This document shows, in pieces, positions 13,594 to 31,500 of a stretch of 64,000 nucleotides of DNA (position 1 is its first letter; every line of letters starts with the position of its first letter). Both the position numbers and the translations under genes were made by a program. The stretch is taken from NCBI GenBank assembly GCA_947089855.1, contig CAMUML010000020.1, positions 140-64,139 on the forward strand, given 5' to 3'. The notes beneath the pieces are model-generated. The model was not told the origin of the DNA. It did not search any database and was given only the letters and a program-made list of their open reading frames with translations. Source of the stretch: an uncultured Eubacterium sp. GTDB taxonomy: Bacteria > Bacillota > Clostridia > Lachnospirales > Lachnospiraceae.

Positions 13594-15933
13594 CTATTTT
13601 CTTGTTTCCTTAAAAATAATCTCCTGCCCGCTGTTATTGTTTACAACAGCCTCCACATCTGCTGCAAATGTACTGTTCCCGGAGCCTTCCATAAAGTTGA
13701 CCGTACAACGCGGCGCTGTCTGTCTAACTATTACATCTAATGGAATAGATGTCGTTACGGTTGTATCCCTTCTTGCCAGAGATAACGGGATATTCGCTGC
13801 TGTGGATCCGGATATTTCTATTTTTATTTCCTTGTTGTCTTCTGGATCCCGGTTATTCCATGCGTTTATTTGGCGGACACTTCCATTTACCGTAAGGCTT
13901 CCATCCCCGCCCCAGTTAAAGATGACGTTATCCATCTGTGCGTCTTCTGCTGCTATAATGCTGGATGTTCCGCTTACAACATATATTTTATTTCCTTTTG
14001 CATGCTCCGTCCACACGTTGCCTCCTTTGCCCCCAATCGAAATTTCCCGGAAAACCGCATAGTTTTCTATTTCTGCATTTGCGGTTTGCACGTAGATCCA
14101 GACATCCTTCCTGCTTTTTTCTTCGCTGATTGTAAGCTTGAGTGCCCCTGGCGTATTAACCATAACCTCTGTACAGCTTCGATCGGCCAATGCTTCCTCT
14201 AATTCTGCCTGGCTGGATACTCTGGCCGATTTTCCACGGTAGGTGCTCCAGCTGTAACCTGCTAAATCAATTGCCCTGCTGGTGCCTGTGTCTGATGGCA
14301 AAGGGACTTCTGCCCGGTAAAGGGTGTAAAAGTTTTTCAACTGGGCGATTACTTCTAGTTTACCATCCTTTGGTTTTACTTCCAGTTCCTTTTGTCCATC
14401 GGAAATCGCTTGTCCATTGATATTTACAAACTGTGCCTGTGTTTCCTCTTCATCCCCTGTTGCAACGGTTATATGTGAATGCAGCAGATCGATTGTTATT
14501 GCCTGCCCAGACGTAACGGTAAGTTTTCCCCGTACATCCAGTATCCTGTCTGCTTCTGTCATGCCAAACCTTGCAACAAGCTCTATATTCTTGGTAATTG
14601 CTGTTTGAAAGTCAAATTTTGAATATTTAATATTCCCTTTTTCGTCTTTTCCATCCGCATAATACCAACCGCTGAATTTATAACCATCCCCATTGCGTTT
14701 GACTATTACAGGAATATCACTTTCCTTTACTTTTTCCCCTGACCGGACTTTTATTTCTTTTCCGTCAAAACTTACTTTATAATAAGTATCCGTAACAACC
14801 GGTGCAGATGGCCTATTCGTTGTTGGCGGTGTATAAGACTGTACATCTGGGTTGAAATCCATTTTTCCTCCCGGCTGAACGTTTTGGGTGTGGTTTTTGG
14901 CATCTGTTACAGCGATGCTGCCATCACTGTTATTTTTGACGGCCATCTTTACCTCTGCTTTTACTTTACTGCCTTCAGACCCTTTTTGAAAATTGAGCAC
15001 TGTATCTACTGCCTTTACCGACGCATCCAGTGGTATCTGCGTAGTAACCTCTGCCCCTTTCGCAGCTGCATCTACTGTCAGCGGGACCATTGGCTTTTGT
15101 GCCAGGTCGCTGGAAATATCCAACGACATTTTTGCACCAACCGTTACATGGTCCACCGTACCGTTTACCACCAGTTTGGCCTTTGCCTGTGTACCCATAA
15201 AAGAAATATCACGGATGCGCCCGCCTGGGCCTACTACAATACGTGCGGAAGATGCCGTTATGCGTAGGGTATTGCCAGCTGCATTCTCATGCCAGGTATC
15301 CCCTGCAATTTCCAAAACATCAATGGACTGGAAAGTTGCACTGTTTTGAACCTCCGACGCCGGTGCTTTTACAATCAATGCCACATTGGAATAATCGCCT
15401 GGCTGGATCATAAAATTCTGTTTTTCTTTTGTATCAATTGTAACCTCTGCAAGATTTTTATCCGCCAGCGCCGCATCCAATTCCGCCTGCGTAGCAACTA
15501 TTTTTTTTGTCCCAGTAACAGTCGGCTGCTCTGGTACTTCCTGGTTTTGTGTTATAACATTCACGGTACATTTTACCAGTTTGCTGTTGTACTGCTTTCT
15601 GGCACTTGTCGCTAGCCTCGCTTTTATCTTTGTTTTTCCAACTGCTTTGCCCTTAATCATAAAATCAGATGCCGACTTACCATAAACCATAGCAATTGAC
15701 CTATCTTCCGTTGCAATTTTGGTAATACGCCATCCAATCTGGTTGTTTTTTAGCGTCATTTTGGTTGCCTGCCCGACATTCAATGTCTTATAAGACGTCC
15801 GTAAACGTACATAAGGCGTGCTTTTTGAGGCCGCACGTGCCACCGGGATGCCATCCATAGCAAATACGGCTGTGAATGCCATCGCTGCTGATAATGCCGC
15901 AGCAGCCATTCTGTTTTTTAGACCTTTTCCCAT
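13594..15933 (-). CDS. Secreted/surface protein with a duplicated ~200-aa beta-rich domain and an InlB B-repeat-like module (start MGKGLK at 15933)
   Basis: Signal peptide; 'VATQAELDAALAD' versus 'VSSQAELEEALAD' repeat; 'GYKFSGWY...FDF.TAITKNIELVARF' motif. Confidence 0.75.
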   Translation of the reverse strand: MGKGLKNRMAAAALSAAMAFTAVFAMDGIPVARAASKSTPYVRLRTSYKTLNVGQATKMTLKNNQIGWRITKIATEDRSIAMVYGKSASDFMIKGKAVGKTKIKARLATSARKQYNSKLVKCTVNVITQNQEVPEQPTVTGTKKIVATQAELDAALADKNLAEVTIDTKEKQNFMIQPGDYSNVALIVKAPASEVQNSATFQSIDVLEIAGDTWHENAAGNTLRITASSARIVVGPGGRIRDISFMGTQAKAKLVVNGTVDHVTVGAKMSLDISSDLAQKPMVPLTVDAAAKGAEVTTQIPLDASVKAVDTVLNFQKGSEGSKVKAEVKMAVKNNSDGSIAVTDAKNHTQNVQPGGKMDFNPDVQSYTPPTTNRPSAPVVTDTYYKVSFDGKEIKVRSGEKVKESDIPVIVKRNGDGYKFSGWYYADGKDEKGNIKYSKFDFQTAITKNIELVARFGMTEADRILDVRGKLTVTSGQAITIDLLHSHITVATGDEEETQAQFVNINGQAISDGQKELEVKPKDGKLEVIAQLKNFYTLYRAEVPLPSDTGTSRAIDLAGYSWSTYRGKSARVSSQAELEEALADRSCTEVMVNTPGALKLTISEEKSRKDVWIYVQTANAEIENYAVFREISIGGKGGNVWTEHAKGNKIYVVSGTSSIIAAEDAQMDNVIFNWGGDGSLTVNGSVRQINAWNNRDPEDNKEIKIEISGSTAANIPLSLARRDTTVTTSIPLDVIVRQTAPRCTVNFMEGSGNSTFAADVEAVVNNNSGQEIIFKETRK

Positions 15934-16049
15934 TTTGTTTTTCCCTTCTGTTATTGTTTTTATACATGATTTTCCAGTTTCCCTACTATTATACCCCCCC
16001 CCATAAAATGTCAACTAAATTTTACTTATGAATAGTAACACGGCTAACC

Positions 16050-17576: not shown

Positions 17577-17795
17577 ATTAATATCCCCTTAACAATGCAA
17601 AATTTATAATTTAAAATTTATAATTTTCCATTTATAGCCGACTTTTGTAAGGAATATTTTAAAACATAGTTTTTGCAATATCTAGCTTTTTGCGCCCTTT
17701 ATTTAATTAATTGTGGGAAGATTTTTTAAGTTGTTTATTTTCAACGTTTTAATGAATTCCATGGACTTTTATCCTTTAACAACACATAAGTCTTT

Positions 17796-17841
17796 TCCAG
17801 CGCCTGGTTCTATCTTAAATGATAGCAACATCGGCGCTGGA
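17796..17841 (-). terminator. Long hairpin closing the cas operon
   Basis: TCCAGCGCC...GGCGCTGGA with additional internal pairing, about 15 bp past the TIR-SAVED stop. Confidence 0.5.
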
Positions 17842-17856
17842 TGTCTAAAATATTTA

Positions 17857-19182
17857 TTATTTTGTCAAAGATTCCTTATAAGTATCTCCATCTTGAATAT
17901 ATTCATATAACTGCACATCACCTGGAAAGACAGACCTGGTCCCTAATACAAACATTAATGGGGCTGCAGTATCTGTGAATAAGTGGATCTTACATCCACT
18001 CCCAGTTCTGCATTTCACCATTTTTTCAAGTAGATATTCCGCCATGCTTTCCAACGTATCTGCATCTGTTATCATCCGTTTTTCCTGAAATAGATATGCC
18101 TTGCAATATTTTTTCTGCTCTGTTTCCATATATTCTTGTACTGTCGTTAAAATATCCCCCAGGCCTTTCGGCTTAATGGATATAATACATACAATATCTG
18201 CACTATTACAGCAGTTCCCATCGTATTGCTTACAAAAATCTTTAATTTCTACATTATGGACTATTCTACTGAATGCAAAACCATCGCGCTGATCCTGTTT
18301 GCTGGCTGTCAAAACCAGATTCCGGTTTCCTGATGCCTGCTTCAATTCACCATATAACTGCCCCAACTTATAAGCAATACTCAAATGGCAATTTAAATGA
18401 ATCCTCCATTTCACATCCGGCAAGTCACTTAGTTTTTCTTTTATCCATTTAAAATCTGCCGATATGTACTTCCAGAAATCCTCCCAACTTGTATTCGGTT
18501 TTAAACATTTACCGTCATCCTCATTTATAAAAGCTTTTCCTAATATATTCCAGTCATAATTTTGATCCCATTGAAAAGTATTAGCATATGGGCACATAGT
18601 CTGTACCCTCAGCGAATACGCTTCACCTCTTTCTTTCTGACTTATTGTTTGTATTATCATCTTCCTCTTAATACTATTATGCACAATATCATAGATCTGG
18701 TCTCGCACCGCTTCCCAGTTTGGCTGGCAAAATTCCATTTTTGTACAATCTCCGGCAGCAGTATCTCCATAAACGTTTAATATAGAATATATATGGTCAT
18801 AAATATCATCATCAATTTTACGGCAGTCATCCATATTAATAATAAAAAATTGTGCTTCCTTGCCTGGCTCCCGTTTTTTTAGAATCTCTTGTAATTCTAA
18901 AGGCGTAAATTTACCTTCGCTATAATTGCTCGAATAGAGGACAACTGCATAGTTAGAATTCCTAAAGATCCCTTTTAATGTCTCCCGGAATGAATTTGCA
19001 ATTGCTATAGCTTCTGGGCGAAGCACATCCATAAAAAATTTCCTTGCAAAAATGAAATCTAGTTCTTCTCCAATCATCCTTGCTATTTTACTATCCTTAT
19101 GGGCATAAGATAATGCTATTTCATATGTTTTTCTACTGTCCTTATAAGCATAAGGCAATGCATTTTCGTATTCTTTATCCAT
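17857..19182 (-). CDS. TIR-SAVED cyclic-oligonucleotide-activated effector (putative NADase)
   Basis: N-terminal TIR (IALSYAHKD, FFMD, AVVLYSSNY, FTPLEL with putative catalytic Glu); C-terminal SAVED (IHLNCHLSIAYKLG, IHLFTDTAAPLMFVLG, VQLYEY). Confidence 0.82.
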   Translation of the reverse strand: MDKEYENALPYAYKDSRKTYEIALSYAHKDSKIARMIGEELDFIFARKFFMDVLRPEAIAIANSFRETLKGIFRNSNYAVVLYSSNYSEGKFTPLELQEILKKREPGKEAQFFIINMDDCRKIDDDIYDHIYSILNVYGDTAAGDCTKMEFCQPNWEAVRDQIYDIVHNSIKRKMIIQTISQKERGEAYSLRVQTMCPYANTFQWDQNYDWNILGKAFINEDDGKCLKPNTSWEDFWKYISADFKWIKEKLSDLPDVKWRIHLNCHLSIAYKLGQLYGELKQASGNRNLVLTASKQDQRDGFAFSRIVHNVEIKDFCKQYDGNCCNSADIVCIISIKPKGLGDILTTVQEYMETEQKKYCKAYLFQEKRMITDADTLESMAEYLLEKMVKCRTGSGCKIHLFTDTAAPLMFVLGTRSVFPGDVQLYEYIQDGDTYKESLTK

Positions 19183-19212
19183 CTGTAATCCCTCTCTGTA
19201 CTTAAACTGTGC

Positions 19213-19911
19213 TTATCCGTTTGTTTCTTGTAAGATTTCTTTCACTTTAGCAATCTTTACTAGCTGCTTTTGGGATACCTTTCTCCCTTCCCATTTTCCA
19301 ATCTTGTTCCAGTATTCCATTAATAGCAAAGCCACCGTTTTTCTATCTTGTGCATCCAATAACCCTTCGCCATCCAATTGCCTGTAATATACCATATCTT
19401 TTTGCTTTTCAAAGATCTCATTTTTCCACTTTTCTTTTCCAGATAATTCATCTACCCTCCTTCGTTCTTCATCCAGTACCTGCTCTTTTTCTTTACGAGC
19501 TATTAATTTCTTCTTCCTTTCTTTTTGACAACTCAACAGGTATTTCGTAAAATATTCATCCCCTTTTGCCATCCACTCGGCATAACAATAATACAAATAT
19601 AATTCCTGGAAAGTAAATGACCTGATTTCTTTACGTAACTGGCTGCTTTGCTGGCTGCCAATCCCAAATGCCAACCGCGCAATCTGCTGAAGCTGCTCCC
19701 TTCTGCAACCATTGATCTGCTTACTTTCCCCACGCCAAAATCCTTGCATGATACCAATCAACCTTTCCTTTTTTTCCTTTTCCGTAGGCTGTGCGGCAGC
19801 CGTTCTGATGCAATTTTCTACTTCTGATAACGCAGAATCACAATCATTCCCAATCTGCCCCTTATGCAAATTTATGCTAATAACTGTTTGCAATACGATT
19901 TCCTTTTGCAT
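19213..19911 (-). CDS. Uncharacterised helical CRISPR-associated protein
   Basis: Overlaps the upstream RAMP gene; predicted all-alpha with a coiled stretch; C-terminal 'YW..IGKW....SQKQ..KI..VKEIL' motif. Confidence 0.7.
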   Translation of the reverse strand: MQKEIVLQTVISINLHKGQIGNDCDSALSEVENCIRTAAAQPTEKEKKERLIGIMQGFWRGESKQINGCRREQLQQIARLAFGIGSQQSSQLRKEIRSFTFQELYLYYCYAEWMAKGDEYFTKYLLSCQKERKKKLIARKEKEQVLDEERRRVDELSGKEKWKNEIFEKQKDMVYYRQLDGEGLLDAQDRKTVALLLMEYWNKIGKWEGRKVSQKQLVKIAKVKEILQETNG

Positions 19912-20974
19912 CTCCCATTATCCTCTCCAGTTCTTTGATCGCCAATGCAATATCCCAGGTACTTTCTTCCCGGTAATCCTTTGCCCATTTTTCAATAAGT
20001 TCCCTGCTGATCCCGGTTACCGATGGATACCTGCCTGGCATACTTTCTGCACCTATCAAATCAACCTGTACTTTTCCATATCCAAAAGGTTTTCCATATC
20101 CTATTTTCATATTATAAAAATGCCCAATGTCCAAAGCATAAGCTAAAAGCTTTCCTTCTTCCTCACGTAACCCCTGAAACCGAACCTCCCCCTCGAAGAC
20201 GCTTCCAGGAGGAATTACTTCATAATTATCTTCTTGGACATCTTTTAATTCCAGTTCCTTTGCGGTACTATAAAATTTCCTTCCACGGAATCCCATTTTA
20301 CGGCCTGTTCCAGCCACTTCCCTATTCAAATAATAATCCTGTTTTGTACAGCTCCCGCAATCGCCTGCTTCACAAGCCATACAATAGTAAAGCCTTTCAT
20401 TCCCATAATTACACTTTCTATATTTCACACCAAACCTATCATGTTCCTTTGGATAGTTCGAAAATGGACTTTTCATCTGTGGAATCTTCTTCTTATCCAA
20501 AACTCCGCATTTCAACACAAACTCCCCAAACTGGGCCCTTCCCTTAAAACTTCCCGAATCACTCATCATCCCAAATATAAAACAGGACATGCAAAGCCCT
20601 TTTACGTTGGAGCAGGCCTTGTTATTGCCTTCGGGTAGGATAGTTTTTAATATAGGATCTGGTACTTTAACTGCACAACTATAAGAAACCGCTTCCGCAA
20701 CAGACCGAACCACCCCTTTCAAACTACTGCCCGGGATCACGATTTGCCCGTTCCTACGTACCTGCCGCTTTATAATATTTCCATTTTCATCATAGTCCTG
20801 CTGCCCGCTTCCAATATGTAAATGTGACTGGGTTGTAATCTTTAATTTCAGCTTACCGCTATAAGAACATTTTTCCCTAATCTGCTGCTGGCAATAATCT
20901 TCTTGCCGACATTGTTCCAAAAGCGGGATAAATTCATATGGCTTGTCCTTTAATAAAGTTTCTCGCTCCGGCAT
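19877..20974 (-). CDS. Cas7-group RAMP with insertion (type III-D terminal Cas7)
   Basis: PYEFIP, LHIGSG, IPGSSLKG, GRKFY and KIGYGKPFGYG motifs. Confidence 0.88.
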   Translation of the reverse strand: MPERETLLKDKPYEFIPLLEQCRQEDYCQQQIREKCSYSGKLKLKITTQSHLHIGSGQQDYDENGNIIKRQVRRNGQIVIPGSSLKGVVRSVAEAVSYSCAVKVPDPILKTILPEGNNKACSNVKGLCMSCFIFGMMSDSGSFKGRAQFGEFVLKCGVLDKKKIPQMKSPFSNYPKEHDRFGVKYRKCNYGNERLYYCMACEAGDCGSCTKQDYYLNREVAGTGRKMGFRGRKFYSTAKELELKDVQEDNYEVIPPGSVFEGEVRFQGLREEEGKLLAYALDIGHFYNMKIGYGKPFGYGKVQVDLIGAESMPGRYPSVTGISRELIEKWAKDYREESTWDIALAIKELERIMGDAKGNRIANSY

Positions 20975-21834
20975 GTTTCTTCCTCCAGTTTCTTTTGAAT
21001 ATCTACTTCACTGCAAATTTCGAGCATTTCATCAATGCTCCGGTCCTGCAGCACCATTTCTCCAAAATAAGGTTCTTTCCATTCATAGGCAGTATGATAC
21101 TTTTGATCCAATGATATTTCCTGCGCATCCAGCGCACCTTTCCATCCTTTCACGCTTTTCCTGTAATCGCGAAAGCAAATATCCAGCTTTTGTACTTCCA
21201 TCTGCCCATTGCCCCTTGTTGTAGCCGCCCCAATGGAAACATATCCTTCATCCAAATCCTTTAGCACATGAAAAAGTAATGCCATTTGATAAAGTTCATA
21301 ATTTTTTATTGTGATTCGAGCCTGGAACGTTCCATCTTCTACAACCTCAAAATCATACAATGCACCCTTGTGTGCTGCCCCAGTTATCCGGTTGATCCCC
21401 ACACCTGTACGCTCCCCCATCACACAATTTTTAATTGGATAAGCGTCTGCCATATAAATCCTGGATGCAATATTCAACGAGCCAAACAGTTTGCATGCAG
21501 GGCATACATACCGGTATACATACTCTCCCTGCTCTTCGTATGGCTTATCAGCCTTACCATTTATTTTGCCATTACATTTGCTTTTATGGTCAAAAATATC
21601 ACAGCATTTTCCTCCAAACAAGTTTACGATATTTTCATATCTGCTGCGAAGCACCCCTTTCAAACTGCTTCCAGGTATCACCACCGTATCCTCACCATGA
21701 TAACGGCTTTTGATACACTGCATATCCAGCAACGTCGGATCCATCAATTTTCCCTGCACACTCCGTATCGTTAACGGGCTTTTCGTATGTAATAAAACTG
21801 ACAGTTTCGCTTCATTCTTCAACTCCCGGAACAT
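20950..21834 (-). CDS. Cas7/Csm3-group RAMP (start MFRELK at 21834)
   Basis: DPTLLDM, IPGSSLKG, CPACKLFG, GVGINRITG and IGAATTRGNG motifs. Confidence 0.9.
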   Translation of the reverse strand: MFRELKNEAKLSVLLHTKSPLTIRSVQGKLMDPTLLDMQCIKSRYHGEDTVVIPGSSLKGVLRSRYENIVNLFGGKCCDIFDHKSKCNGKINGKADKPYEEQGEYVYRYVCPACKLFGSLNIASRIYMADAYPIKNCVMGERTGVGINRITGAAHKGALYDFEVVEDGTFQARITIKNYELYQMALLFHVLKDLDEGYVSIGAATTRGNGQMEVQKLDICFRDYRKSVKGWKGALDAQEISLDQKYHTAYEWKEPYFGEMVLQDRSIDEMLEICSEVDIQKKLEEETCRSEKLY

Positions 21835-22657
21835 GCCTTTTCCTCCCTTCTTCCTCATGTAATTTCGTAAATGCAACCTCTTCTCCGCACAGATATTTCA
21901 CTATGTTTGTATGGTTAATATTCTGTACCCTAATATCCGTCAACTTAATTTCACCGAGCCCCCTTGACTTCATCCCGCCTATCGGAATAATCCCAAGTTC
22001 CATTGCCCTCAATAACTGCTTTACAACCTTCCACTCATGTTCTTCTGCATTTTCCAAAACCGCTTGAAATGAAAACTTCGTCCCTTCCGGCACAACCTCT
22101 GTTGTAAAAGTTCTATTTTCAACATTCGTCCCTAAATTACGGTCAATCGCTACGCCGCTTCGAATTTCAAATTCCCTTGAAAAGGAATCTTCATCAACCC
22201 TTGCATCCCTTATGCTAAATTTTGCACAACTAAGCGGGGAACCAAAAATCCTACATACCATACAGAGCTTTCCATCTTTCCCTCCTTTTGTTCCAAAAAG
22301 GTATTCGGAAAGCTTTTCCCCACTATCTGCTGCACGTTGTTCTAACAACCCTTTTAATGTTTCATCCTGTTTTATATCAGTACAAGGATTTTTCTCATTA
22401 CAGATTTCGGTTCTATAATTGGTTTCTTTTAATATGCCATCCCTACCAGACTCACTGGAAAGGTACTGTTCCAGAAAACTACGCATTGCGCCTTTTAATG
22501 AAGATCCTGGAATTAAAGGCAATCCATGCGCATTACGGAAAAAAGGGTTCTTGCATCCATTTGGCTGAAATACACTTTCGGCTGCCCCAATGTGTAGTGC
22601 TGTCACTGCAACCAGATTTCCTTCTATCACATACCGGTTAATAAATTCTTCAAACAT
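21812..22657 (-). CDS. Cas7-group RAMP, Csx7-like
   Basis: LHIGA, IPGSSLKG, CMVCRIFGS, RSGVAIDR and IGGMKSRGLG motifs. Confidence 0.9.
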   Translation of the reverse strand: MFEEFINRYVIEGNLVAVTALHIGAAESVFQPNGCKNPFFRNAHGLPLIPGSSLKGAMRSFLEQYLSSESGRDGILKETNYRTEICNEKNPCTDIKQDETLKGLLEQRAADSGEKLSEYLFGTKGGKDGKLCMVCRIFGSPLSCAKFSIRDARVDEDSFSREFEIRSGVAIDRNLGTNVENRTFTTEVVPEGTKFSFQAVLENAEEHEWKVVKQLLRAMELGIIPIGGMKSRGLGEIKLTDIRVQNINHTNIVKYLCGEEVAFTKLHEEEGRKRHVPGVEE

Positions 22658-22669
22658 CCTTCTTCCTCC

Positions 22670-23152
22670 TTAGCTTCTACTTACTGTAGAAACTTTCCAA
22701 AATAAATACCCCATATACTTTTCTGCTATCTGAAGCCTTATCAGGCGTTCATCCTCACTATTTATTTTATCTGCCCCAGCCTTTTGTTCTATCATCTTAT
22801 AGATTTCATCTTGTATTTTCATAAATGACTTTGCAAGTTTTTTCGCTACATCTTCACCGTCACGGCATTTTGCATTCCAACCACTATCCTTAGATTTTTG
22901 GTAAGACAAGTAAAGCAGCAATTCCTCAATACAGGCTGCTTCTCCGGCCGCCTTCATAAGTATTTCAAATTGCTTTCTTCCTGGAACTTTTCGTTTCTCT
23001 TTTTTTTCACCTATTGCCTGGCCATTTCCCTTATTAATGATAAAAAGCCCTCCAGCTTGATCTTCTGCCATAAAGTAGTCTATCTCTTTTAGCAAAGTTC
23101 TGGTTTCTCTTTTTAATATTTTTTCAGTTATAACTTGTATCTCTTTTTCCAT
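22670..23152 (-). CDS. Cas11/Csm2-like small subunit
   Basis: 160-aa helical protein between the Cas5 and Cas7 genes; 'ELLLYLSYQ..K...W' and 'YMGYLFW' motifs. Confidence 0.7.
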   Translation of the reverse strand: MEKEIQVITEKILKRETRTLLKEIDYFMAEDQAGGLFIINKGNGQAIGEKKEKRKVPGRKQFEILMKAAGEAACIEELLLYLSYQKSKDSGWNAKCRDGEDVAKKLAKSFMKIQDEIYKMIEQKAGADKINSEDERLIRLQIAEKYMGYLFWKVSTVSRS

Positions 23153-24314
23153 CCTTCTTTCCTCCTAAAACATCATAGTTAATATGAAAGCTGTCGCAAA
23201 CCCGTATTTTACCAAACCCATGTTTCGTGTATTTCCCTATGCCCTGTAATTCCAATTTTAAAAGTTCCTCTATATCAAAATGTTGCCCACATCTTTGATA
23301 TACAAAAACTGCCCCAGCCTTGACCACAAGGCGCCCCTTCCTTATAGCTTCAGTTTCTTCTGATGTATCAAACCCTCTATAAACTTCTTGAAATTTAAAT
23401 GCTTTTTGAAGCTGATAAGTTTGCCTTTTAAGCCCTATCTCTTCCTCTAGAAAAGTGATCATCTGGCTATCTGAAAGATCCGTCTGAGAAATCGCATCCG
23501 TTCCTATTTTTTCTAATTCCAAATAGGCATCCGTAAGCAAATCCAAAATGACAAACTGCTGCCCACCTCCAATCCCTTCATTAAAATTATATATCCTCTT
23601 CCTGATGTTTTCTGCTGTGCTGTCTTCCGGTACTTCGCCGTAAGACATATAGCAGGCGCCAAATCCCCTAGTCGTATCCGCCCCGATATACAATAAACGG
23701 ATCTGGCTTAATTCCGCTGCTGCCTGTGGGGATAAGCGGATATTACCAGAAAACCAGACCTCGGACAATTCATCATTATTATCTTTATATTTTTCCGAAA
23801 TAACATTTTGTGTATAAAGGGAACCTTCTTTTGCCGCATTCCGATGGTAATCAACCGCAGTCCTTGTAATCGCTGAATGGATTAATTTTATCTCTTGCCC
23901 ATCTAAATGAATCCCTTCTAAACGCCGCCATCCGGATTCCCCTGGCACTTTTGCCTGTGTCACTAAACGGCTTTTTAATATGTCATAAATCCCTATTTCG
24001 CCTTCTTGCTGATACTTTTTTCCCCTTGCTGTCACAGGATATGGGCTGCCTCCCATTGGATACAGCACCGGAAAGGAAATTTCCGAAAAATGTTTACAAA
24101 CTGTTTGAAACGCACATGTTCTACACTGGCTTTGTCCTTGAAACGTCAGATAATTATTTTTTTGCCCACAAGCACACCGCTGTATCAGTGCCTTTGCATA
24201 TGCAGCACGTAACACACTGCCTGGAATATAGTTTTTTGACTCCCTATAATTACTGTTAAGCTTCTTTCCGCCAATCATAAGGGGCGATTTTAAAACCGCA
24301 TCTATTTTGTACAT
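23124..24314 (-). CDS. csx10: Csx10/Cas5-group RAMP (start MYKIDA at 24314)
   Basis: Two RAMP-type Gly loops: YIPGSVLRAA...IGADTTRGFG and AGAVFVY...GIGKYTKHGFG. Confidence 0.8.
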   Translation of the reverse strand: MYKIDAVLKSPLMIGGKKLNSNYRESKNYIPGSVLRAAYAKALIQRCACGQKNNYLTFQGQSQCRTCAFQTVCKHFSEISFPVLYPMGGSPYPVTARGKKYQQEGEIGIYDILKSRLVTQAKVPGESGWRRLEGIHLDGQEIKLIHSAITRTAVDYHRNAAKEGSLYTQNVISEKYKDNNDELSEVWFSGNIRLSPQAAAELSQIRLLYIGADTTRGFGACYMSYGEVPEDSTAENIRKRIYNFNEGIGGGQQFVILDLLTDAYLELEKIGTDAISQTDLSDSQMITFLEEEIGLKRQTYQLQKAFKFQEVYRGFDTSEETEAIRKGRLVVKAGAVFVYQRCGQHFDIEELLKLELQGIGKYTKHGFGKIRVCDSFHINYDVLGGKKDGKRDTSYN

Positions 24315-24976
24315 ATCTTTCCCCCAATCTGCTCCTTGATCCACCGGTTTACTTCTTCAATTTCAATAAGCTCCTGCTCCGGCGCACCAGCCCGATTCCT
24401 TCTCGGCCCTTTTTTTACACAGAAAGAAACCTGTTCCTGTAGCCATCCCAACCCAGAAGAACATTTGCCACCCATTGAAAAAATAAGCCGTATTGCCGCA
24501 GCCAAATACGCAATATCTTTTTGATAAGTACCTTCATCCAAAAAACCGTATATACTGCTTTGAAAGGCCATGTTTCCACCATACCCACTTGATTCCAACG
24601 TATATAGCTGCCCTTCTTTTTTTGCCTTTGTATAACGGCTGATAGAAACCCCTGTCCGCTTTTGCGTAATGTTATCCTTTAGGTCATAATAATCGGATTC
24701 CTGTACCAACGTCCCATTTTCAAAAAACATACTGCCCTGCTGTACGCCTCCTGTTCCAAATATTTTTTCACCATTGTTAAAAGCAGGCACTATCTTGGAA
24801 AGTGCAGCTGCATATTGTGCTACATAACCTTTTAACGCCGCGCCCGGAATATAAGGGAGCCCATCCATCCCCCGTAATAAATAGGACTGTATCTCACCAT
24901 TTCCTGCACCGCCGCCAAAATAGAATGAATCATAAAATTTAATGGTAAGGCACATTTCGATTTCTACTTTTTTCAT
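24302..24976 (-). CDS. Cas7/Csm3-group RAMP (start MKKVEI at 24976)
   Basis: PYIPGAALKG, IFG, RTGVSISR and MGGKCSSGLG motifs. Confidence 0.85.
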   Translation of the reverse strand: MKKVEIEMCLTIKFYDSFYFGGGAGNGEIQSYLLRGMDGLPYIPGAALKGYVAQYAAALSKIVPAFNNGEKIFGTGGVQQGSMFFENGTLVQESDYYDLKDNITQKRTGVSISRYTKAKKEGQLYTLESSGYGGNMAFQSSIYGFLDEGTYQKDIAYLAAAIRLIFSMGGKCSSGLGWLQEQVSFCVKKGPRRNRAGAPEQELIEIEEVNRWIKEQIGGKICTK

Positions 24977-27021
24977 TTTGTATCCCCCGTATAATCCCAA
25001 AGTTCAATAGCATCCACCCAAGGGGAATATGCCACACCCTGACACACAAGATTTTGGTTTACTGCTTCCCCCTCAAATGCCTTTGCAAGCCTCCCTAATC
25101 CACACTTAACCTTTGTCCCTTCTTTTGTTTCCTCTTTTCTGCCTACCTGATACTCAAAAAAAAGCTCCGCCTCCTCTTTTATATGCTGATACCAACTTTG
25201 CTGCAGTTGAAATGCAAAAGATTTTTCTTTTTCTATTTTCTTTAGAAATTTTTTCATTGCGTCGGCCTGCGTCCAAGTATACGGCCTTAGAGTTTTTTTC
25301 GGTTTATCATCTTTTGCCATCCGTTGATAGGCAATATCTGCACCTCCTGGTATTTCATTTTCAATTACCATCCAATCTATCGTCCCAGTATTATTCCCCT
25401 TTTCCCGCTCCTGCCAAGCCTTATGTTTGGCAGATTTTAGCAATTTCTGCGCAATAGCAAATGAATACTGAACCGGCATATGGTCATGGGCGATGCATAC
25501 GCCTATAGACATAGTCATTTGACATTTCTCATTCGACTGGTTTTGAAACTTCTGGTCAAATATCTTTCCAATCGTGCAGGCAATATCATATGCTTTTGGC
25601 CCTGGAACAATCAAAAATATATCATCTCCACCAACTGCTATCACCTCAAAGGCTAACTTATCCCCTAAATTCTTATATAATGCTTCAAAGACCACTTCTG
25701 TCACACTATCTGCTGTAACTTCGCTAAAGTAGCGCATTGTCAGAAACGACTTTAAGTTGTTGATATGGCTGCTCATATTGTTGGCATCCCCATAAATAAC
25801 CCCGACAAAACCATTTTGTGCTATATACTCCAGTTTGTTGTAGCACTTTGTATCTTCAATCACCTTATTATATTTTCTTTTAACAAAATCCTTGTATTCC
25901 CGATGCCTAGAACGCTTTGCATCCCTGCCACCTTCCTGTTTTTTCCGCATGCAGCTTGGGCACAGCATTTCTTCTGCTTTTGTTCCTTCATGTAAAACTG
26001 CCACTGCATAACGGTTACGGCACGAAGTGCAAAATTCCTGTTTCGTTTCTTTAATTTTTTTCCATCCCCACCCCTTAACTGCTTCCTCCAAAACTTTTTC
26101 ATCTGCCTGTGGTTCTAAACGGAAGTCCCAACGCAGCCCCTGACGTTCCTCTAAGGCTAAATCCATCTCATCAACTACACTTTGATATTCATCAATTAAC
26201 CGCTGCAGCTTGTAGGGACGGCTGCAAAAATTAAACTGTGCTGTTACCGTTTCTTTTTCAGTCATAACCCCAATCTTCTGACAGGTTTCCTCCCCTTTTC
26301 CTTCTGGAAATATTCCCATCATTTTTCCGCCACCAGCATAAATCAAACATTCCCTGATATGTTCTTGGCTGATTAATTGTTTCATCTTCTCAGTATTTAC
26401 TTTTTCCAGCAGCAGGCTAGCACCACGTATCTCAGGTATTTTATTGGTCTCTAAATAATATTGCTTTATTTTTACTAACCCTCCCTTTACCAGATCAGCC
26501 ATATCCGTATCTAAACAACCTTTTTCCTTGTTCTGCCGACAGATCATCTGCTCTATCTGCTCTAATTCCGGGCTTTCTTCGGCGCTGTTTACCAGCTGCC
26601 AAGTAAATCCCTGCATCCGGATCTTGGCTTTTTCCTGCACCATATCTGGGCTATTTTGAATGGAAGGGTATTTTAACACATACAAACATGCCGTCCGGAA
26701 ACACACATAATCCCGGATACGCGCACATTCTTTTATCCCCTGTGCCAAATCCATAAAATAGGGAAGATCCGCAAACAGCTGTGCTTCTTTTGTTTCTCCT
26801 TCCCCATAAAATAGCTTTTCCATTTTATCGATGCTACCCTCTTTCAGATACTGTTCCAAAAGCTTCTTTCCAGCATGGTCAATGCGGCCATAATCTTCTG
26901 TTGAAATGCAATAATTTGTTCCTGTAACTAAATCCTTCCATCCTCGATAGCCGTCTTTCCTCTTTTCATACAGTTTCCTTTCTTTTTTTGCCTTTTCATA
27001 GTACCAATCTACATATACCAT
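24973..27021 (-). CDS. cas10: Cas10 (type III-D-like, no HD domain, intact palm/cyclase)
   Basis: KIKQY...EIRGASLLL, IYAGGG, Zn-type CTSC/CPSC, GVIYGDANNM, VGGDDIF and A..LLKSAK motifs. Confidence 0.92.
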   Translation of the reverse strand: MVYVDWYYEKAKKERKLYEKRKDGYRGWKDLVTGTNYCISTEDYGRIDHAGKKLLEQYLKEGSIDKMEKLFYGEGETKEAQLFADLPYFMDLAQGIKECARIRDYVCFRTACLYVLKYPSIQNSPDMVQEKAKIRMQGFTWQLVNSAEESPELEQIEQMICRQNKEKGCLDTDMADLVKGGLVKIKQYYLETNKIPEIRGASLLLEKVNTEKMKQLISQEHIRECLIYAGGGKMMGIFPEGKGEETCQKIGVMTEKETVTAQFNFCSRPYKLQRLIDEYQSVVDEMDLALEERQGLRWDFRLEPQADEKVLEEAVKGWGWKKIKETKQEFCTSCRNRYAVAVLHEGTKAEEMLCPSCMRKKQEGGRDAKRSRHREYKDFVKRKYNKVIEDTKCYNKLEYIAQNGFVGVIYGDANNMSSHINNLKSFLTMRYFSEVTADSVTEVVFEALYKNLGDKLAFEVIAVGGDDIFLIVPGPKAYDIACTIGKIFDQKFQNQSNEKCQMTMSIGVCIAHDHMPVQYSFAIAQKLLKSAKHKAWQEREKGNNTGTIDWMVIENEIPGGADIAYQRMAKDDKPKKTLRPYTWTQADAMKKFLKKIEKEKSFAFQLQQSWYQHIKEEAELFFEYQVGRKEETKEGTKVKCGLGRLAKAFEGEAVNQNLVCQGVAYSPWVDAIELWDYTGDTK

Positions 27022-27056
27022 ATGCTGTCCCTCCTTTTCATTACAATACCATAGCC

Positions 27057-28004
27057 TTAGGTTAATTTATATTTACCAAAACCAAAGCTTGTATTTTTTC
27101 CTATATGGGTCAACTCTCCTACTGCCAGTACCAGAAGCAACTCATCTGGCATATGGCCAAGTTCTGCATACCCTTTCACCCCCCATAATGCCATTTTTTT
27201 ATTTTGCGTCGATGAATATCGTGTCACAAATACATCTTTACAAACTTGCTCCTCAATCACGGGCATCTTATTTCCCTCTAGGTTCATGCAATCATAGATA
27301 CTGCAATCCATCCCTTCAAAGCATTCCAGCATATAAATTCTTCTTAGCACCGCCTCCCATATCGTTTCCATTTGGAACACATTTTGAAATTCATTCTGAT
27401 GCTTTAACGTAACTGGCGACTGAAAAGTAATCCTGTGCTTGCTATAGTTTTCCTGAATTTGCTTTGCCCGGTAACTGCCATACTCCCCGAGTGTATATAA
27501 CTGGTGCTGTTTCCTATCTTTAAAACCTTCTATTAAAAACTGCTTCCCCCTTGTATCCGTTATCGAAATAATCTGGAATTTAGAATGCCCTTTCCCGACC
27601 CCTTCCTTTCCTAGTGCTAAAAATGCCCCTATATACTGGTTAAAATACACAATCGCTTTTCCAAATAAGATAAGGTTAAACCGCAGCAAATCACCACCAC
27701 GGAACGTCTCCCTATCATCTTCACATTCAAGTATGTAACCTATGCTATCCTTTGCTGTCACAAATTTAGGCCGCAGATTGTATTTGGAATATAAAGTCTT
27801 ATGCACGATACACTCCGGCTCAAAATCACACCTTTCACAATTACGGTCACAAATGCAGTTTGCCCGAAGCAGCATCTCCCCCATCCCACCCCGCAGTGCA
27901 GAAACTTTATAAATTGGAAGCTTTGTATCCTCCAACAAAGCTACTGTAAAATGAAGTTTAATATATTTGATTCCAAGGGCATTTACTAATTGCTGCCTGA
28001 CCAT
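27057..28004 (-). CDS. cas6: CRISPR repeat-processing endoribonuclease Cas6
   Basis: SALRGGMG, Cys cluster, and C-terminal Gly loop GELTHIGKNTSFGFGKY. Confidence 0.9.
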   Translation of the reverse strand: MVRQQLVNALGIKYIKLHFTVALLEDTKLPIYKVSALRGGMGEMLLRANCICDRNCERCDFEPECIVHKTLYSKYNLRPKFVTAKDSIGYILECEDDRETFRGGDLLRFNLILFGKAIVYFNQYIGAFLALGKEGVGKGHSKFQIISITDTRGKQFLIEGFKDRKQHQLYTLGEYGSYRAKQIQENYSKHRITFQSPVTLKHQNEFQNVFQMETIWEAVLRRIYMLECFEGMDCSIYDCMNLEGNKMPVIEEQVCKDVFVTRYSSTQNKKMALWGVKGYAELGHMPDELLLVLAVGELTHIGKNTSFGFGKYKLT

Positions 28005-28103
28005 AACCCCAGTTCACCTCCTACCATAAACAAAAGTGCCCTCTAGTATACAACTCATATGCGTACTTGACTACATAACAAGTGTACTATATTTATAAGA
28101 TCT

Positions 28104-28132
28104 ATTATACACGAAAATACAATCAATTACTA
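28104..28132 (-). promoter_or_regulatory. Putative promoter of the cas operon
   Basis: TAGTAA-N17-TATAAT on the minus strand about 100 bp upstream of cas6. Confidence 0.4.
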
Positions 28133-28454
28133 GAGTATATTTTATAAATTGGTTAAAACTTAATTTTGTTCTATTTAAAAGAAAAAGGAATGATTAAGAA
28201 AACACCAGTACTATCAAACCGTGTAATGTTACCTGGCAATGTAGAAGTTTTTAGAATATAATAACCGAAATTTACAGAAGCGGAAGAAACTCTCCCCTTT
28301 TTCGCAAAAGGGTTCAAAGCAGCCCTCCAGCTATAAAAACGGAGGGCGGTACAATAAATAACCATTTACAAATTATCCCATATGCATCTTGCAGGGCTTG
28401 CGAAAAATTAATGCCGTTTTCTAAGGCAGCGTTGGTAGGAAAAACACAAACTTA

Positions 28455-28483
28455 CGGCAGCAGCGTTTCCAACGCTGCTGCCG
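28455..28483 (-). terminator. Terminator hairpin after the large esterase gene
   Basis: CGGCAGCAGCGTT-TCC-AACGCTGCTGCCG perfect 13-bp stem. Confidence 0.75.
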
Positions 28484-28501
28484 CTTAAATTAAAAACCGG
28501 C

Positions 28502-31500
28502 CTATGCCTTTTTAACTTTCAGCTTCAAGGAAAGGGTCTTCGTGGAACCATTCTTCATAGCCACTTTTACCTTTACCACTACGTTCCCCTTCTTCTTTGC
28601 CTTAACCACGCCATCTTTCGAAACAGAAGCTATTTTAGTATTAGAAGAGCTATAAGTAATCTTTGCAACATTTGCCATATCCATTTGTTTATAGAATGGA
28701 ATATTCAGCTTCCTGCCAACTTTCACAGTTTTTTGTGCCGCCTGCAGTTTCACTGTTTTTAAGATACTTTTGTTTACTTTTTGGCTCTTGGCTTCGTTCA
28801 AAAGAATATAATCGCTGCCCTTTGGCGCGCGCAACGATAGATTGCCGCTCCTGGATACTGTATAGCTTATCGCATTCACCATTGTATACTTCTTTGTTGC
28901 ACTGTTGTAAGCATACAGGTACAGCACGTTTCCGGCTGTAAGGTTTGCACTGTCGACGGTCAGCGTATATAGTTTTTTGCCGGCCTTGTCGACCATTTTT
29001 ACCTTCACTTTCAGATTGTCCGTACCGGCCTTTTTCTGCATCTCTTTGATGGATGGCCCTAAGATCACGGCTTTTGCATTCCCTGAACCTGCTTCTGCTT
29101 CCTTTGTGATTACGGTGCTGGCAGAAGTGATGGCATTATTTTTGTCTTTTACGGTCTTAATAACAACCTGCGCCTCATACGTGGCATCGGTATAGGTTAT
29201 TTTTTCCGTTGTTTTTAAGGTATTTCCTGCCGCATCTTTTTGTACGGCTATTTCATTGGTAACGCCGTTTTCTGTCTTTATGGACGTTACGGTTTGGGTT
29301 CCATCCGGTTTCGTTTCGGTAATGGATACCTCAACGGTTCCATCTGGTTTTTTGGTCGTCTGTGTTACTACGGTTGTCCCATCTTCTTTGGTATCCGTCG
29401 TAACCGTAACGTCATCTTTCGGGCCTGGTTCTTCTGGCGGTGTCACGGTTCCGCTTCCCGGATCTGTAGGTTTTTCCGGCTCTTGCGGCTTTGACCCGGT
29501 ACTGCCAGAAGAGCTGCCGCCGGACGAACTGCCGCCGGAGGAGCTGCCGCCGCTGGAAGATGTCTGCCCTACTTTACGTTCACCAATTAAAACACCCTGG
29601 TTAAAGATGCCTGCCGTTACTTTTACGGTGTAATAAGAATCCGTATTCAAATCCATAGAGTTGACCTTTACGGTATCGGACAACGCTACGGTATCCGCTG
29701 TAACGTCTACGGTATTGCGGTAGGATGCTACGGTACTGCCATTTTGTTCAATGCGGACGGTAACTGGTACACGCAACGGCGGGTTCGCCTCTTTTGTGTA
29801 TTCCGAAGCCGGTATGGTATTGAAGTAGTTTTTCAGCGCCTGTGTAATACCTGCCGCGTACGTTACCTCTACGGTATTGGCATCAACACGCGAAACGTTT
29901 ATCGAAAGGTCGGACAATAGCTGCTTCGCTGTTTCTGCATCCATCATCTTTAATGCATCTGTCTGGTAAGCAAATGCATCGATTACATATGGCAAATAAA
30001 ACGGGCTGTCGTGTTCCCCTTCTTCCAGTTCAAAGAAATGGGCAATCCCACCCTGACGCAGCCTCTGGTCCAGCGCAATCGCAGGGATGCCAAATTTATA
30101 CAGGTCACGGTTGCCGCTTACAAAGTAATGCGTATAATAATCTAAGTAAGCATCGCTTTGTGCCTGTGCGATCTGCAACGGGTTCTCGCCCATATTGATC
30201 GCCCCAAAAAAGCTGATAATGCCGGAAAATAAATCCGGGTGTGTCAATCCAATGTAATAAGAACCGCTGCCGCCCATAGAAGCGCCTGCTGTAAAGCGGT
30301 ACCTTGCATCCGGGATTGTCCGGTAATGGGCATCGATAAACGGCAGTATTTCTTCCGTTACCATAAGGTCCCATCCGTTATGCCACCAGCTGTCCCCTTT
30401 GCTGTCCGGAATAACCAGTATCGTATCCTGGATACGCCCGCTTGCGATCCCTTCATCCAGCAATTTATCGATGCCGTCAATCGCATAAGAATTGCTGCTG
30501 CTGTTTAACTGGTGGAAAACATATGCCGTCGGATACCTCTTATCGGCATTTTCCGCATCGAAATAGCCTTCCGGAAGGTATACCAAAAAGTCTTCCTGCA
30601 ATGTTTCTGCAGGCTGCGCTTCTTTTACGGCTGCTTCTTCCTCTTCGGATTGGACTGCCTGTGCTTTATACTTGGAATCAATGGACTGCGTATAGAAACG
30701 GTCGTGCTGGCCATATAAATATGCAGTGCCATATTTTATTTTGTAGTATTCAGCAACTTTTTGCGTTTCCGTGCTGCCGTCTGTTTTTGTCAAAGTACGG
30801 TCTGCCTGGTAGTAAAACAGGTCTTGCTGTACAAACACATATGCATTGGTATCCTCTATATTTGTAACGCTGCCCAGATAGGAACCTTGTACATCTTCCA
30901 GCAACATTTCTTTGGTAACGCCGGACTGGAAAAATGCTGGGTCAACTGTTTTTCCATAAGCATTGATGTCCTGTTTTACGATTGCTTTTATCTGTGTATC
31001 TACTGCCTGCTTTACAGCGGACGCGTCGCTATTGGATGCATAAATGCTTGGCTTGCTGGTCAGCTTGTTGTAAGCTGCTGCGGAATATAGCCCAGGATGC
31101 CCGCTATACCAGCCACCGCCGCCGGAATTATTATGGGTTAATACTACCATCACATTTTTTACCCCATCGCCGATATGCAGGTACTCTGAATTGATGGAAT
31201 AAATGCGTTCCGTATCCCAGCAGTCTTTTTCATGCAGCCAGGTCTGTTCATTTAAGCCGGTGCATCCAATTTGCTGCCCATTGATAAAACAGATGTCTGT
31301 TTCATCAAAACAGCCAACCGGAACGACATATTCCCCTTGCGGGAAAGAATCAGGGATTTCAAATTCCTTGACATACCACGCATAGCCTGCGTAGTTGTTC
31401 ATATCTGTATTCTTGGAAAAGTCGGAATTCCACCATGCCAGGCACGGATAGACTTCTTCCCAGTCGGCATATTCGCTTTCCTGCGGAAGCACACCGGCTA

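What the first reader, a model, noticed from the sequence alone, without database searches (positions are those of the whole stretch)
17857..28004. Array-less type III-D-like CRISPR-Cas operon ending in a TIR-SAVED effector
Seen: ten closely packed, mostly overlapping genes, cas6-cas10-cas7-csx10-cas11-cas7-cas7-cas7(ins)-unknown-TIR-SAVED. They form an AT-richer island between a wzx gene and an esterase gene. Cas10 keeps GGDD but has no HD nuclease. I find no repeat-spacer array in either flank (17577-17856, 28005-28501) or elsewhere, and no cas1/cas2, csx19 or recognisable ring nuclease. Established: Cas10 palm domains make cyclic oligoadenylates, and TIR-SAVED proteins are cOA-activated NADases known from CBASS and type III. 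Inference: a signalling-only, abortive-infection type III system that uses crRNAs in trans or a non-canonical guide or trigger. It may be an undescribed variant.
Basis: partly seen in the sequence, partly recalled or inferred. Interest (0 to 1): 0.85.

Follow-up and report, generated by a model that had tools for sequence, protein, structure and literature searches.

The report
Type III-D variant using distant arrays
This ten-gene CRISPR type III-D-like operon has no guide array beside it, but the same genome carries a matching array on another contig, so it likely uses ordinary guides made elsewhere to detect invader RNA and is predicted to switch on an NAD-destroying protein, with an extra small-subunit-like gene and two predicted-dead RNA-cutting sites setting it apart from described systems.

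Summary
The ten genes are real, but the system is not guide-less. The genome has one CRISPR array on another contig (C48: 10 repeats, 9 spacers). Its repeat family lies beside homologous operons in Dorea-like loci and in 6 of 7 genomes of this clade, against 14 of 400 family genomes without it. Spacers of this repeat family are mostly antisense to coding-like sequence (43 of 51), as expected for RNA targeting. No cas1/cas2 was found in the 90%-complete assembly. HD-less Cas10, distant arrays and TIR-SAVED effectors are all known for type III. What is unusual is a conserved rodent-gut Lachnospiraceae clade with: no csx19; a last Cas7 lacking the large insertion; the 'unknown' gene, which models as a second Cas11-like subunit fused to the tail domain of Cmr6/Csm5; loss of the catalytic Asp in two of three backbone Cas7s; CBASS-type SAVED effectors; and no recognisable ring nuclease. 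Likely mechanism: trans crRNA, target RNA, Cas10 cyclic oligoadenylate (probably cA3), TIR NADase, growth arrest with a weak off-switch. Nothing was tested biochemically. Verdict: new variant of type III-D.

The parts
27057..28004 (-). cas6, crRNA-processing RNase
   Evidence: Pfam CRISPR_Cas6 1.5e-12, PADLOC Cas6 1.3e-62; 46-47% identical to the Cas6 of a csx19-type III-D locus that has an array of the same repeat family on its contig (G007:C43)
24973..27021 (-). cas10, cyclase-type (GGDD kept), no HD nuclease
   Evidence: Pfam Cas10 palm2 7e-16, PADLOC Cas10 5.5e-55; D412, D466, D467 invariant in 48 of 48 homologues; no HD motif
24302..25000 (-). cas7 (first backbone paralogue); catalytic Asp replaced by Gln
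   Evidence: RAMP hit; aligns to Synechocystis Cas7-Cas5-Cas11 with Gln opposite D26 (D26 catalytic per PMC11026444); Gln in 9 of 11 aligned rows
23124..24344 (-). csx10-type cas5
   Evidence: PADLOC Cas5_IIId 5.5e-35; NCBIfam TIGR02674 2e-34 but below its cut-off
22670..23152 (-). cas11 (III-D Csm2 small subunit)
   Evidence: PADLOC PDLC01487 Csm2 III-D 1.9e-19
21812..22657 (-). cas7/csx7 (second paralogue); catalytic Asp replaced by Lys
   Evidence: TIGR02581 over cut-off; Lys opposite D33 of Synechocystis Cas7-2x and opposite the Csm3 Asp that is Ala in entry 6mur; Lys or Arg in 9 of 10 rows
20950..21876 (-). cas7/csx7 (third paralogue); keeps the likely catalytic Asp
   Evidence: TIGR02581 over cut-off; Asp37 (numbered from the internal Met) invariant in 9 of 9 rows; catalytic role inferred from motif position, not from a clean alignment to a solved active site
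19877..20974 (-). terminal cas7 of the TIGR03986 family, lacking the large insertion; carries a short Cys-rich insert
   Evidence: TIGR03986 9e-38, below cut-off; model positions skipped; alignment; best PDB hits are gRAMP chains
19213..19911 (-). predicted second Cas11-like subunit (residues 1-119) joined by a long helix to a helical tail domain shared with Cmr6/Csm5 C-termini
   Evidence: AF2 model pLDDT 93.9; 8 of the 10 listed structure rows covering the N-domain, including the top 7, are chains read as Csm2/Cmr5 (Z 5.3-6.2); 5 of 46 family members hit a III-D Csm2 HMM, best 4e-5; C-half matches tails of Cmr6/Csm5 proteins; N-domain fused to the last Cas7 in P0095
17857..19182 (-). TIR-SAVED effector, predicted cyclic-oligoadenylate-activated NADase
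   Evidence: TIR_2 2.6e-5 and SAVED 2.8e-5, both below cut-off; PADLOC SAVED_TIR 7.6e-10; Glu96 invariant in 48 of 48 homologues and opposite the Glu of the WCLDEL motif of plant TIR structures; C-half matches Cap4 SAVED structures

Best explanation
The operon encodes a type III-D-lineage RNA-sensing complex that likely loads ordinary crRNAs cut by its own Cas6 from an array elsewhere in the genome, and whose Cas10 is predicted to make a cyclic oligoadenylate that would activate the TIR-SAVED protein to destroy NAD+. Shown: the genes, the intact GGDD and TIR Glu, the array on contig C48, its repeat family, hairpin and orientation, and its co-occurrence with the operon. Inferred: Cas6 cleavage leaving an 8-nt tag; assembly with the second Cas11-like protein near the last Cas7; cA3 as messenger (by analogy with characterised TIR-SAVEDs); NAD+ depletion and growth arrest. 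Also inferred, at about 50%: because two of three Cas7 cutting sites have lost their aspartate and no ring nuclease is encoded, the signal is shut off poorly, so defence works as CBASS-like abortive infection. Spacer acquisition would come from cas1-cas2 of other III-D/III-A loci that share this repeat family, or from an unassembled module.
For: Array in G000. Same repeat family in cis to the homologous operon in L005, L010, L015; 4-bp hairpin followed by 8 nt kept in 10 of 10 aligned repeats. Repeat present in 6 of 7 clade genomes (G000, G401-G404, G406; not G405) against 14 of 400 family genomes, none of which had this Cas10 at E<=1e-20; within the genus 3 of 3 with the operon against 2 of 19 without (two of the three are G401 and G404 again). 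The operon is the only RAMP cluster in G000, G403 and G404. 43 of 51 spacers score better as coding on the reverse strand (7 of 9 in G000), against 28 of 58 for a type I-B array. The C48 flank is present in 3 of 3 runs that hold the operon, and not in 1 run without it. Cas6 is 47% identical to one on the contig of an array with the same hairpin. No SMODS cyclase in 5 of 5 genomes searched. Asp losses. The outgroup locus L009 keeps all three aspartates and has CARF-HEPN effectors plus Csx20.
Against: No biochemistry. The operon and array are on different contigs of a binned assembly (89.7% complete, 3.8% contamination), so the link is statistical. G405 has the operon with neither cas6 beside it nor this repeat. 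The repeat family is shared with canonical csx19-type III-D and III-A loci, so it is not specific to this operon. No protospacer was found. The aspartate losses are probably one ancestral event (single clade), so their link to SAVED effectors is one observation. One Cas7 site is kept and may be present in several copies. In the S. thermophilus Csm complex, terminal RNA fragments stay bound for over an hour even with cleavage (PMC11040160, abstract), so losing sites may change little. SAVED domains can be ring nucleases (PMC12409355 passage). The Cas11-like call rests on Z about 6; profile comparison with the operon's own Cas11 gave only 2% probability; the gene is absent in L014 and truncated in L005, L010, L011.
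Confidence: 0.8

Rival explanations
1. A conventional type III-D system: guides in trans and an adaptation module missing from the assembly; the lost aspartates and the extra gene are neutral quirks, and shut-off is normal through the remaining Cas7 site or a SAVED ring-nuclease activity.
For: HD domains occur in only 3% of III-D Cas10s, and TIR-SAVED was found in 7 of 1113 loci including III-D (PMC11229360 passages). About 12% of cas clusters are not next to an array (PMC7145637 passage). The S. solfataricus III-D operon is described without csx19 and skips one cleavage site (bioRxiv 2022.11.14.516469 passages). Other spacers next to the same repeat appear in runs X1 and X14, hinting at acquisition or further arrays.
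Against: The same architecture recurs across about ten loci in different genomic contexts. No second Cas11-like gene is described for III-D in the papers seen. cas1 was not found in G000 or G404, and only a cas1-cas2-csn2 locus in G403.
Confidence: 0.35
2. One reading: the complex works with a non-canonical guide or trigger, independent of CRISPR arrays.
For: No adjacent array detected in the window or in 7 other SAVED-effector loci (L003, L004, L006, L007, L014, L018, L068; flanks are short in L006, L014 and L068). G405 lacks the repeat family.
Against: Cas6 is retained and is of the lineage found with this repeat; arrays co-occur with the operon far above background; spacers show type III strand bias. 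G405 has a type I-B array it could use instead.
Confidence: 0.07
3. The locus is decaying, or TIR-SAVED is driven by a CBASS cyclase rather than by Cas10.
For: Two Cas7 catalytic residues are lost; the Dorea-like loci have a truncated extra gene, no effector and, in L005, a split last Cas7. The L007 effector is a CBASS Cap4-type protein (PADLOC 7e-201).
Against: All ten ORFs are intact; catalytic residues of Cas10 and TIR are invariant in 48 of 48 homologues each; substitutions at the Cas7 sites are conserved, not random; no SMODS cyclase in 5 of 5 genomes; TIR-SAVED homologues sit in the effector slot of 6 other loci.
Confidence: 0.08

Closest known systems
Synechocystis type III-Dv (PMC11026444; passages seen)
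   Same: Same gene order of domains (cas10, cas7-cas5-cas11, cas7-cas7, terminal TIGR03986 Cas7); the first two Cas7 profiles hit 8s9t chains A and D best
   Different: Here the subunits are unfused, csx19 is absent (essential for assembly in III-Dv), the large Cas7 insertion is absent, two of the three catalytic aspartates are replaced, there is an extra Cas11-like gene, and the array is distant
Saccharolobus solfataricus type III-D, SsoCsm, PDB 8bmw (bioRxiv 2022.11.14.516469; passages seen)
   Same: Separate Cas10, Cas5, Cas11 and several Cas7 paralogues; operon described without csx19; one backbone site does not cleave; third Cas7 profile hits 8bmw_H best
   Different: One cas11 gene there, two Cas11-like genes here; five cas7 genes there, four here; its silent site keeps a plausible aspartate; no TIR-SAVED mentioned in the passages seen
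TIR-SAVED effectors: CBASS M. ketosireducens protein, CRISPR-associated TIR-SAVEDs (PMC11229360 passages) and TSR1 of Arachnia propionica III-D (bioRxiv 2026.09.16.751991; abstract, introduction, passages)
   Same: TIR with catalytic Glu followed by SAVED; located in a type III locus
   Different: No fused Crn4 ring nuclease (the SAVED match runs to residue 440 of 441); a divergent family below Pfam cut-offs whose profile did not list the M. ketosireducens structure 7QQK among 19 hits at E<=1; messenger untested
Type III-G/III-H and array-poor III-B/C/F loci (PMC12669027; passages and section 8 seen)
   Same: No adaptation module; crRNAs proposed to be recruited in trans
   Different: III-G/H have a dead Cas10 cyclase, an active HD nuclease and no cOA effectors; here the reverse

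Membership tests
Type III CRISPR-Cas | Cas10 with Cas5, Cas7 and Cas11 subunits | tested here: met
Type III CRISPR-Cas | Cognate repeat-spacer array and Cas6 | tested here: met
   Array in trans on C48; co-occurrence, hairpin, strand bias, related Cas6; cognate status is inferred, not assayed
Type III CRISPR-Cas | Target-RNA-triggered cyclic nucleotide synthesis | not testable with these tools
   GGDD and neighbouring Asp invariant; activity not assayed
Subtype III-D (broad) | csx10-type Cas5 (signature status recalled from earlier classifications, not from a call) | tested here: met
   Best PADLOC hits are Cas5_IIId, 5.5e-35; TIGR02674 2e-34 though under its cut-off
Subtype III-D (broad) | HD-less Cas10, several Cas7 paralogues, III-D-type Cas11 | tested here: met
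Subtype III-D (broad) | Placement of Cas10 in the III-D clade of a reference tree | tested here: inconclusive
   Quick tree with only two outside references, both on very long branches
III-Dv / csx19-type III-D | csx19 gene | tested here: not met
   No ORF slot for it in the operon; three Csx19 queries found nothing in G000 at E<=0.01
III-Dv / csx19-type III-D | Large insertion in the terminal Cas7 | tested here: not met
   About 160-235 model positions skipped
Cas11 (Csm2/Cmr5), for gene 19213-19911 | Small-subunit helical fold | tested here: inconclusive
   Top N-domain rows are Csm2/Cmr5 but Z<=6.2; 5 of 46 members hit a III-D Csm2 HMM; Foldseek no match; hhalign to own Cas11 2%
Cas11 (Csm2/Cmr5), for gene 19213-19911 | Binds the Cas7 backbone in the effector complex | not testable with these tools
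   Needs purification or cryo-EM
TIR-SAVED NADase effectors | TIR domain with catalytic Glu fused to SAVED | tested here: met
   (both domain hits are weak)
TIR-SAVED NADase effectors | cA3-activated NAD+ cleavage | not testable with these tools
   By analogy only
TSR1 (TIR-SAVED-Crn4) | C-terminal Crn4 ring nuclease | tested here: not met
   No room after the SAVED domain
CBASS | CD-NTase cyclase gene | tested here: not met
   None in the operon; PF18144 found in 0 of 5 genomes, all incomplete assemblies
Type III-G / III-H | Inactivated Cas10 palm with active HD nuclease | tested here: not met
   GGDD intact, no HD

The most novel reading that the evidence does not exclude
A distinct III-D variant that has turned adaptive CRISPR into a latched, CBASS-like suicide switch: it dropped csx19, the Cas7 insertion, its own adaptation module, its ring nuclease and the two tag-proximal RNA-cutting sites, gained a second Cas11 carrying an uncharacterised tail domain, and is programmed by dispersed arrays, some of them carried by prophages and other mobile elements that could thereby aim the host's NADase at competitors.
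Probability: 0.3. Interest if true: 0.75.

Novelty: new variant of a known kind. Interest (0 to 1): 0.5.

Why it matters
Target RNA cleavage and ring nucleases are the two accepted off-switches of type III signalling, and removing cleavage experimentally causes autoimmunity (PMC9368842, abstract). A natural clade that has weakened the first, lacks a recognisable second and couples to CBASS-type effectors would make it possible to test how far type III can shift toward abortive infection and how it then avoids self-killing. The second Cas11-like protein gives a stand-alone handle on an uncharacterised helical tail that also ends many Cmr6 and Csm5 proteins. A complex with naturally long cOA output could be useful for RNA detection. 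If shut-off proves normal, it remains a modest architectural variant of III-D.

Tried and rejected
Single-protein scan of genome contigs with Cas10 found nothing; the alignment scan did. The operon was not found in viral contigs, in 400 family genomes by single query, or, for the extra gene, in 398 class genomes. Single-sequence fold of the extra gene was poor (pLDDT 47.9); the Atlas search with a homologue, the PDB sequence search and Foldseek gave nothing usable. Complex prediction of the last Cas7 with the extra protein returned no answer (score 0.01) and is not used either way. Protospacer searches: no self-target, no credible phage hit, only repeat matches in 350 family genomes. Metatranscriptome and RNA-guess contigs cover parts of the operon (one 1892-nt contig over TIR-SAVED in X16), but contigs cannot show transcription or rank genes. 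Promoter and terminator scans were at chance level. The leader end seen in runs X9 and X14 was not found elsewhere in G000, so what lies upstream of the array is unknown. The G402 arrays were dropped from the spacer strand test because their repeats begin with A and missed the pattern. The tree is the quick version only. Earlier-finding look-ups returned nothing. Literature searches for a description of this variant listed none, but cover open-access full text only; the Zenodo data files of PMC12669027 and one scanned supplement were not seen and may include this clade in the Cas10 tree. Considered and rejected: guide-less system; CBASS-driven effector; pseudogene; csx19 hidden as the unknown gene (no Csx19 HMM hit and an all-helical model, whereas Csx19 is described as beta-sheet-rich).
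Full report
Observation. Ten ORFs lie on the minus strand between 17857 and 28004 in the order reported. The stretch is 40.1% GC against 46.9% for the rest of the window, and 6 of 9 junctions overlap. Profile searches name Cas6, Cas10, Csx10-type Cas5, a III-D Cas11, four RAMP Cas7s (two above the Csx7 cut-off) and a TIR plus SAVED protein whose domain hits fall just under Pfam's cut-offs; the 232-aa gene hit nothing. Cas10 keeps GGDD, with D412, D466 and D467 invariant in 48 of 48 homologues, and has no HD motif. The window holds no array.

The array exists, in trans. A scan of all 101 contigs found one CRISPR array, at the start of contig C48: 10 repeats of 36 nt and 9 spacers of 35-38 nt. 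The repeat folds into a 4-bp hairpin followed by 8 nt, and this is kept in 10 of 10 repeats aligned from several loci, without covariation. Contigs from runs X9 and X14 continue upstream of C48 into a sequence resembling the leaders of related arrays, and the last repeat is the degenerate one, which fixes the orientation. In that orientation 43 of 51 spacers of this repeat family score better as coding sequence on the opposite strand (7 of 9 in this genome; p 7e-7, kin not independent), against 28 of 58 for a type I-B array; the G402 arrays were missed by the pattern. That is the bias expected of RNA targeting. The operon is the only RAMP cluster in this genome.

The link to the operon. Alignment scans returned 19 related loci. 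In three near-identical Dorea-like loci (L005, L010, L015) an array of the same repeat family lies about 1 kb upstream of cas10. In loci with a SAVED effector no adjacent array was detected, but the host genomes carry the repeat on other contigs: 6 of 7 clade genomes are positive, G405 is not, and the two outgroup genomes are not. In G402 and G403 the operon contigs (329 and 65 kb) have no array at all, so distance is not just fragmentation. Controls: 14 of 400 family genomes carry the repeat and none of those 400 had this Cas10 at E<=1e-20; in the genus, 3 of 3 genomes with the operon and 2 of 19 without it carry the repeat (two of the three repeat G401 and G404). Of five background carriers checked, three have fused-Cas7 RAMP clusters (csx19 confirmed in the two that were mapped) and two have no RAMPs, so the repeat is shared across Lachnospiraceae type III systems. 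The window's Cas6 is 47% identical to the Cas6 of one such locus. The C48 flank was present in 3 of 3 runs holding the operon and absent from 1 run without it; two runs showed spacers not in this assembly, and the 570 nt after the array appear in two alleles with variable neighbours. cas1 and cas2 were not found in G000 (89.7% complete) or G404; G403 has only a cas1-cas2-csn2 locus; G401 and G402 have adaptation genes at other type III loci.

What is distinctive. The gene order cas10-cas7-cas5-cas11-cas7-cas7-cas7-extra gene-effector recurs in different genomic contexts, with no csx19 slot. Against solved structures, the first Cas7 has Gln where Synechocystis has catalytic D26 (9 of 11 rows) and the second has Lys or Arg where it has D33 (9 of 10 rows); the third keeps an invariant Asp at the motif position. 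By the Synechocystis numbering the two lost sites would be those nearest the crRNA tag (inference). The extra gene, folded with 46 homologues, gives a confident model (pLDDT 93.9). Its N-domain aligns best to Csm2 and Cmr5 chains, 8 of the 10 listed rows that cover it, though only at Z 5.3-6.2, and 5 of 46 members hit a III-D Csm2 HMM. Against this, Foldseek found nothing and the profile match to the operon's own Cas11 was 2%. Its C-half matches the tails of many longer proteins; of 11 such hits scanned, 10 are Cmr6 or Csm5. In P0095 the N-domain is fused to the last Cas7. The gene is absent in L014 and truncated in the Dorea-like loci, so it is not always required.

The effector. TIR-SAVED has 49 homologues besides itself, with Glu96 invariant in the 48 aligned and opposite the Glu of the plant TIR WCLDEL motif. 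It fills the last slot in six other loci; L007 has a CBASS Cap4-type nuclease-SAVED there. No SMODS cyclase was found in five host genomes and three ring-nuclease-type queries found nothing in G000. In a quick tree all SAVED-effector loci fall in one clade (support 100) that also contains the effector-less Dorea-like loci; L009, outside it, keeps all three aspartates and has CARF-HEPN effectors with Csx20. This contrast is one evolutionary event, not many.

Mechanism. Most likely Cas6 processes the distant array, the complex binds invader transcripts, Cas10 makes a cyclic oligoadenylate, and TIR-SAVED depletes NAD+. cA3 is the best guess because the CBASS TIR-SAVED and TSR1 use it, although cA4 was suggested for another CRISPR TIR-SAVED. 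With one cutting site and no evident ring nuclease the signal may persist, giving abortive infection; RNase-dead Cmr4 causes dormancy or death in S. islandicus (abstract). But cleaved ends already stay bound for over an hour in a normal Csm complex (abstract), and SAVED domains can degrade their ligand, so I put the latch idea near 50%.

Comparison with what is known. HD domains occur in 3% of III-D Cas10s and TIR-SAVED in 7 of 1113 type III loci, including III-D (PMC11229360 passages). 88% of cas clusters sit with an array, so distant ones are a known minority (PMC7145637 passages), and the 2025 classification notes array-less type III loci that recruit crRNA in trans (PMC12669027 passages). 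The S. solfataricus III-D operon is described without csx19. I found no description of a III-D with a second Cas11-like gene and two substituted Cas7 sites in the ten literature searches listed under Tried and rejected; these cover open-access text only, and data files of the classification paper were not seen. The locus meets the broad III-D features tested and fails those of III-Dv/csx19-type systems, CBASS, TSR1 and III-G/H.

Verdict. A real, intact, conserved type III-D-lineage variant of rodent-gut Lachnospiraceae (habitat from run records, most of which may be the source of this DNA, and locus titles) that very likely uses normal guides in trans. New variant of a known kind; interest 0.5.

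Noticed in passing
G000:C36:28140-28540 (L067): Six to seven copies of a 23-nt unit at a 61-63 nt period with AT-rich, partly similar spacers, between a secA-like gene and a 210-aa gene (labels read by eye from the translations). No Rfam match; the unit occurs one to three times in 13 of 21 congeners and five times here at <=1 mismatch. Unexplained; possibly an amplified regulatory site or RNA repeat.
   Followed up: partly
L064:8295-8667, L059, L060 (G403); L070, L071, L072 (IMG/VR contigs): Short arrays of the same type III repeat family sit next to terminase, Rha and DNA adenine methylase genes, and in 3 viral contigs, i.e. on prophages or mobile elements that could program the host's type III complex.
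   Followed up: partly
L066:713-1198 (G000:C48): A 161-aa ORF without family hits follows the array; the 692-1263 stretch shows two alleles and about twice the flank depth in 3 runs, with alternative neighbours at 1263, suggesting a duplicated or mobile array cassette.
   Followed up: partly
L056:8261-12584 (G402:C47): A csx19-type III-D locus has cas1, cas2 and a 942-aa reverse transcriptase fused to AEP-TOTE and Gam-like domains, between two arrays.
   Followed up: no
P0112, P0116, P0118, P0119 and about 100 similar hits: An unnamed helical tail domain of about 100 aa ending in a conserved W-x-G-K...K-Q motif ends many Cmr6 and Csm5 proteins; no Pfam family covers it in the extra-gene family.
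   Followed up: partly
L003 and L007: The operon lacks cas6 in these loci and would need Cas6 in trans; L007's genome has a type I-B system but none of this repeat family.
   Followed up: partly
window 28502-32851 and 13594-16014: Flanking genes encode large proteins: a 1449-aa esterase with an Ig-like domain and an 806-aa protein with a weak Listeria-Bacteroides repeat hit.
   Followed up: no
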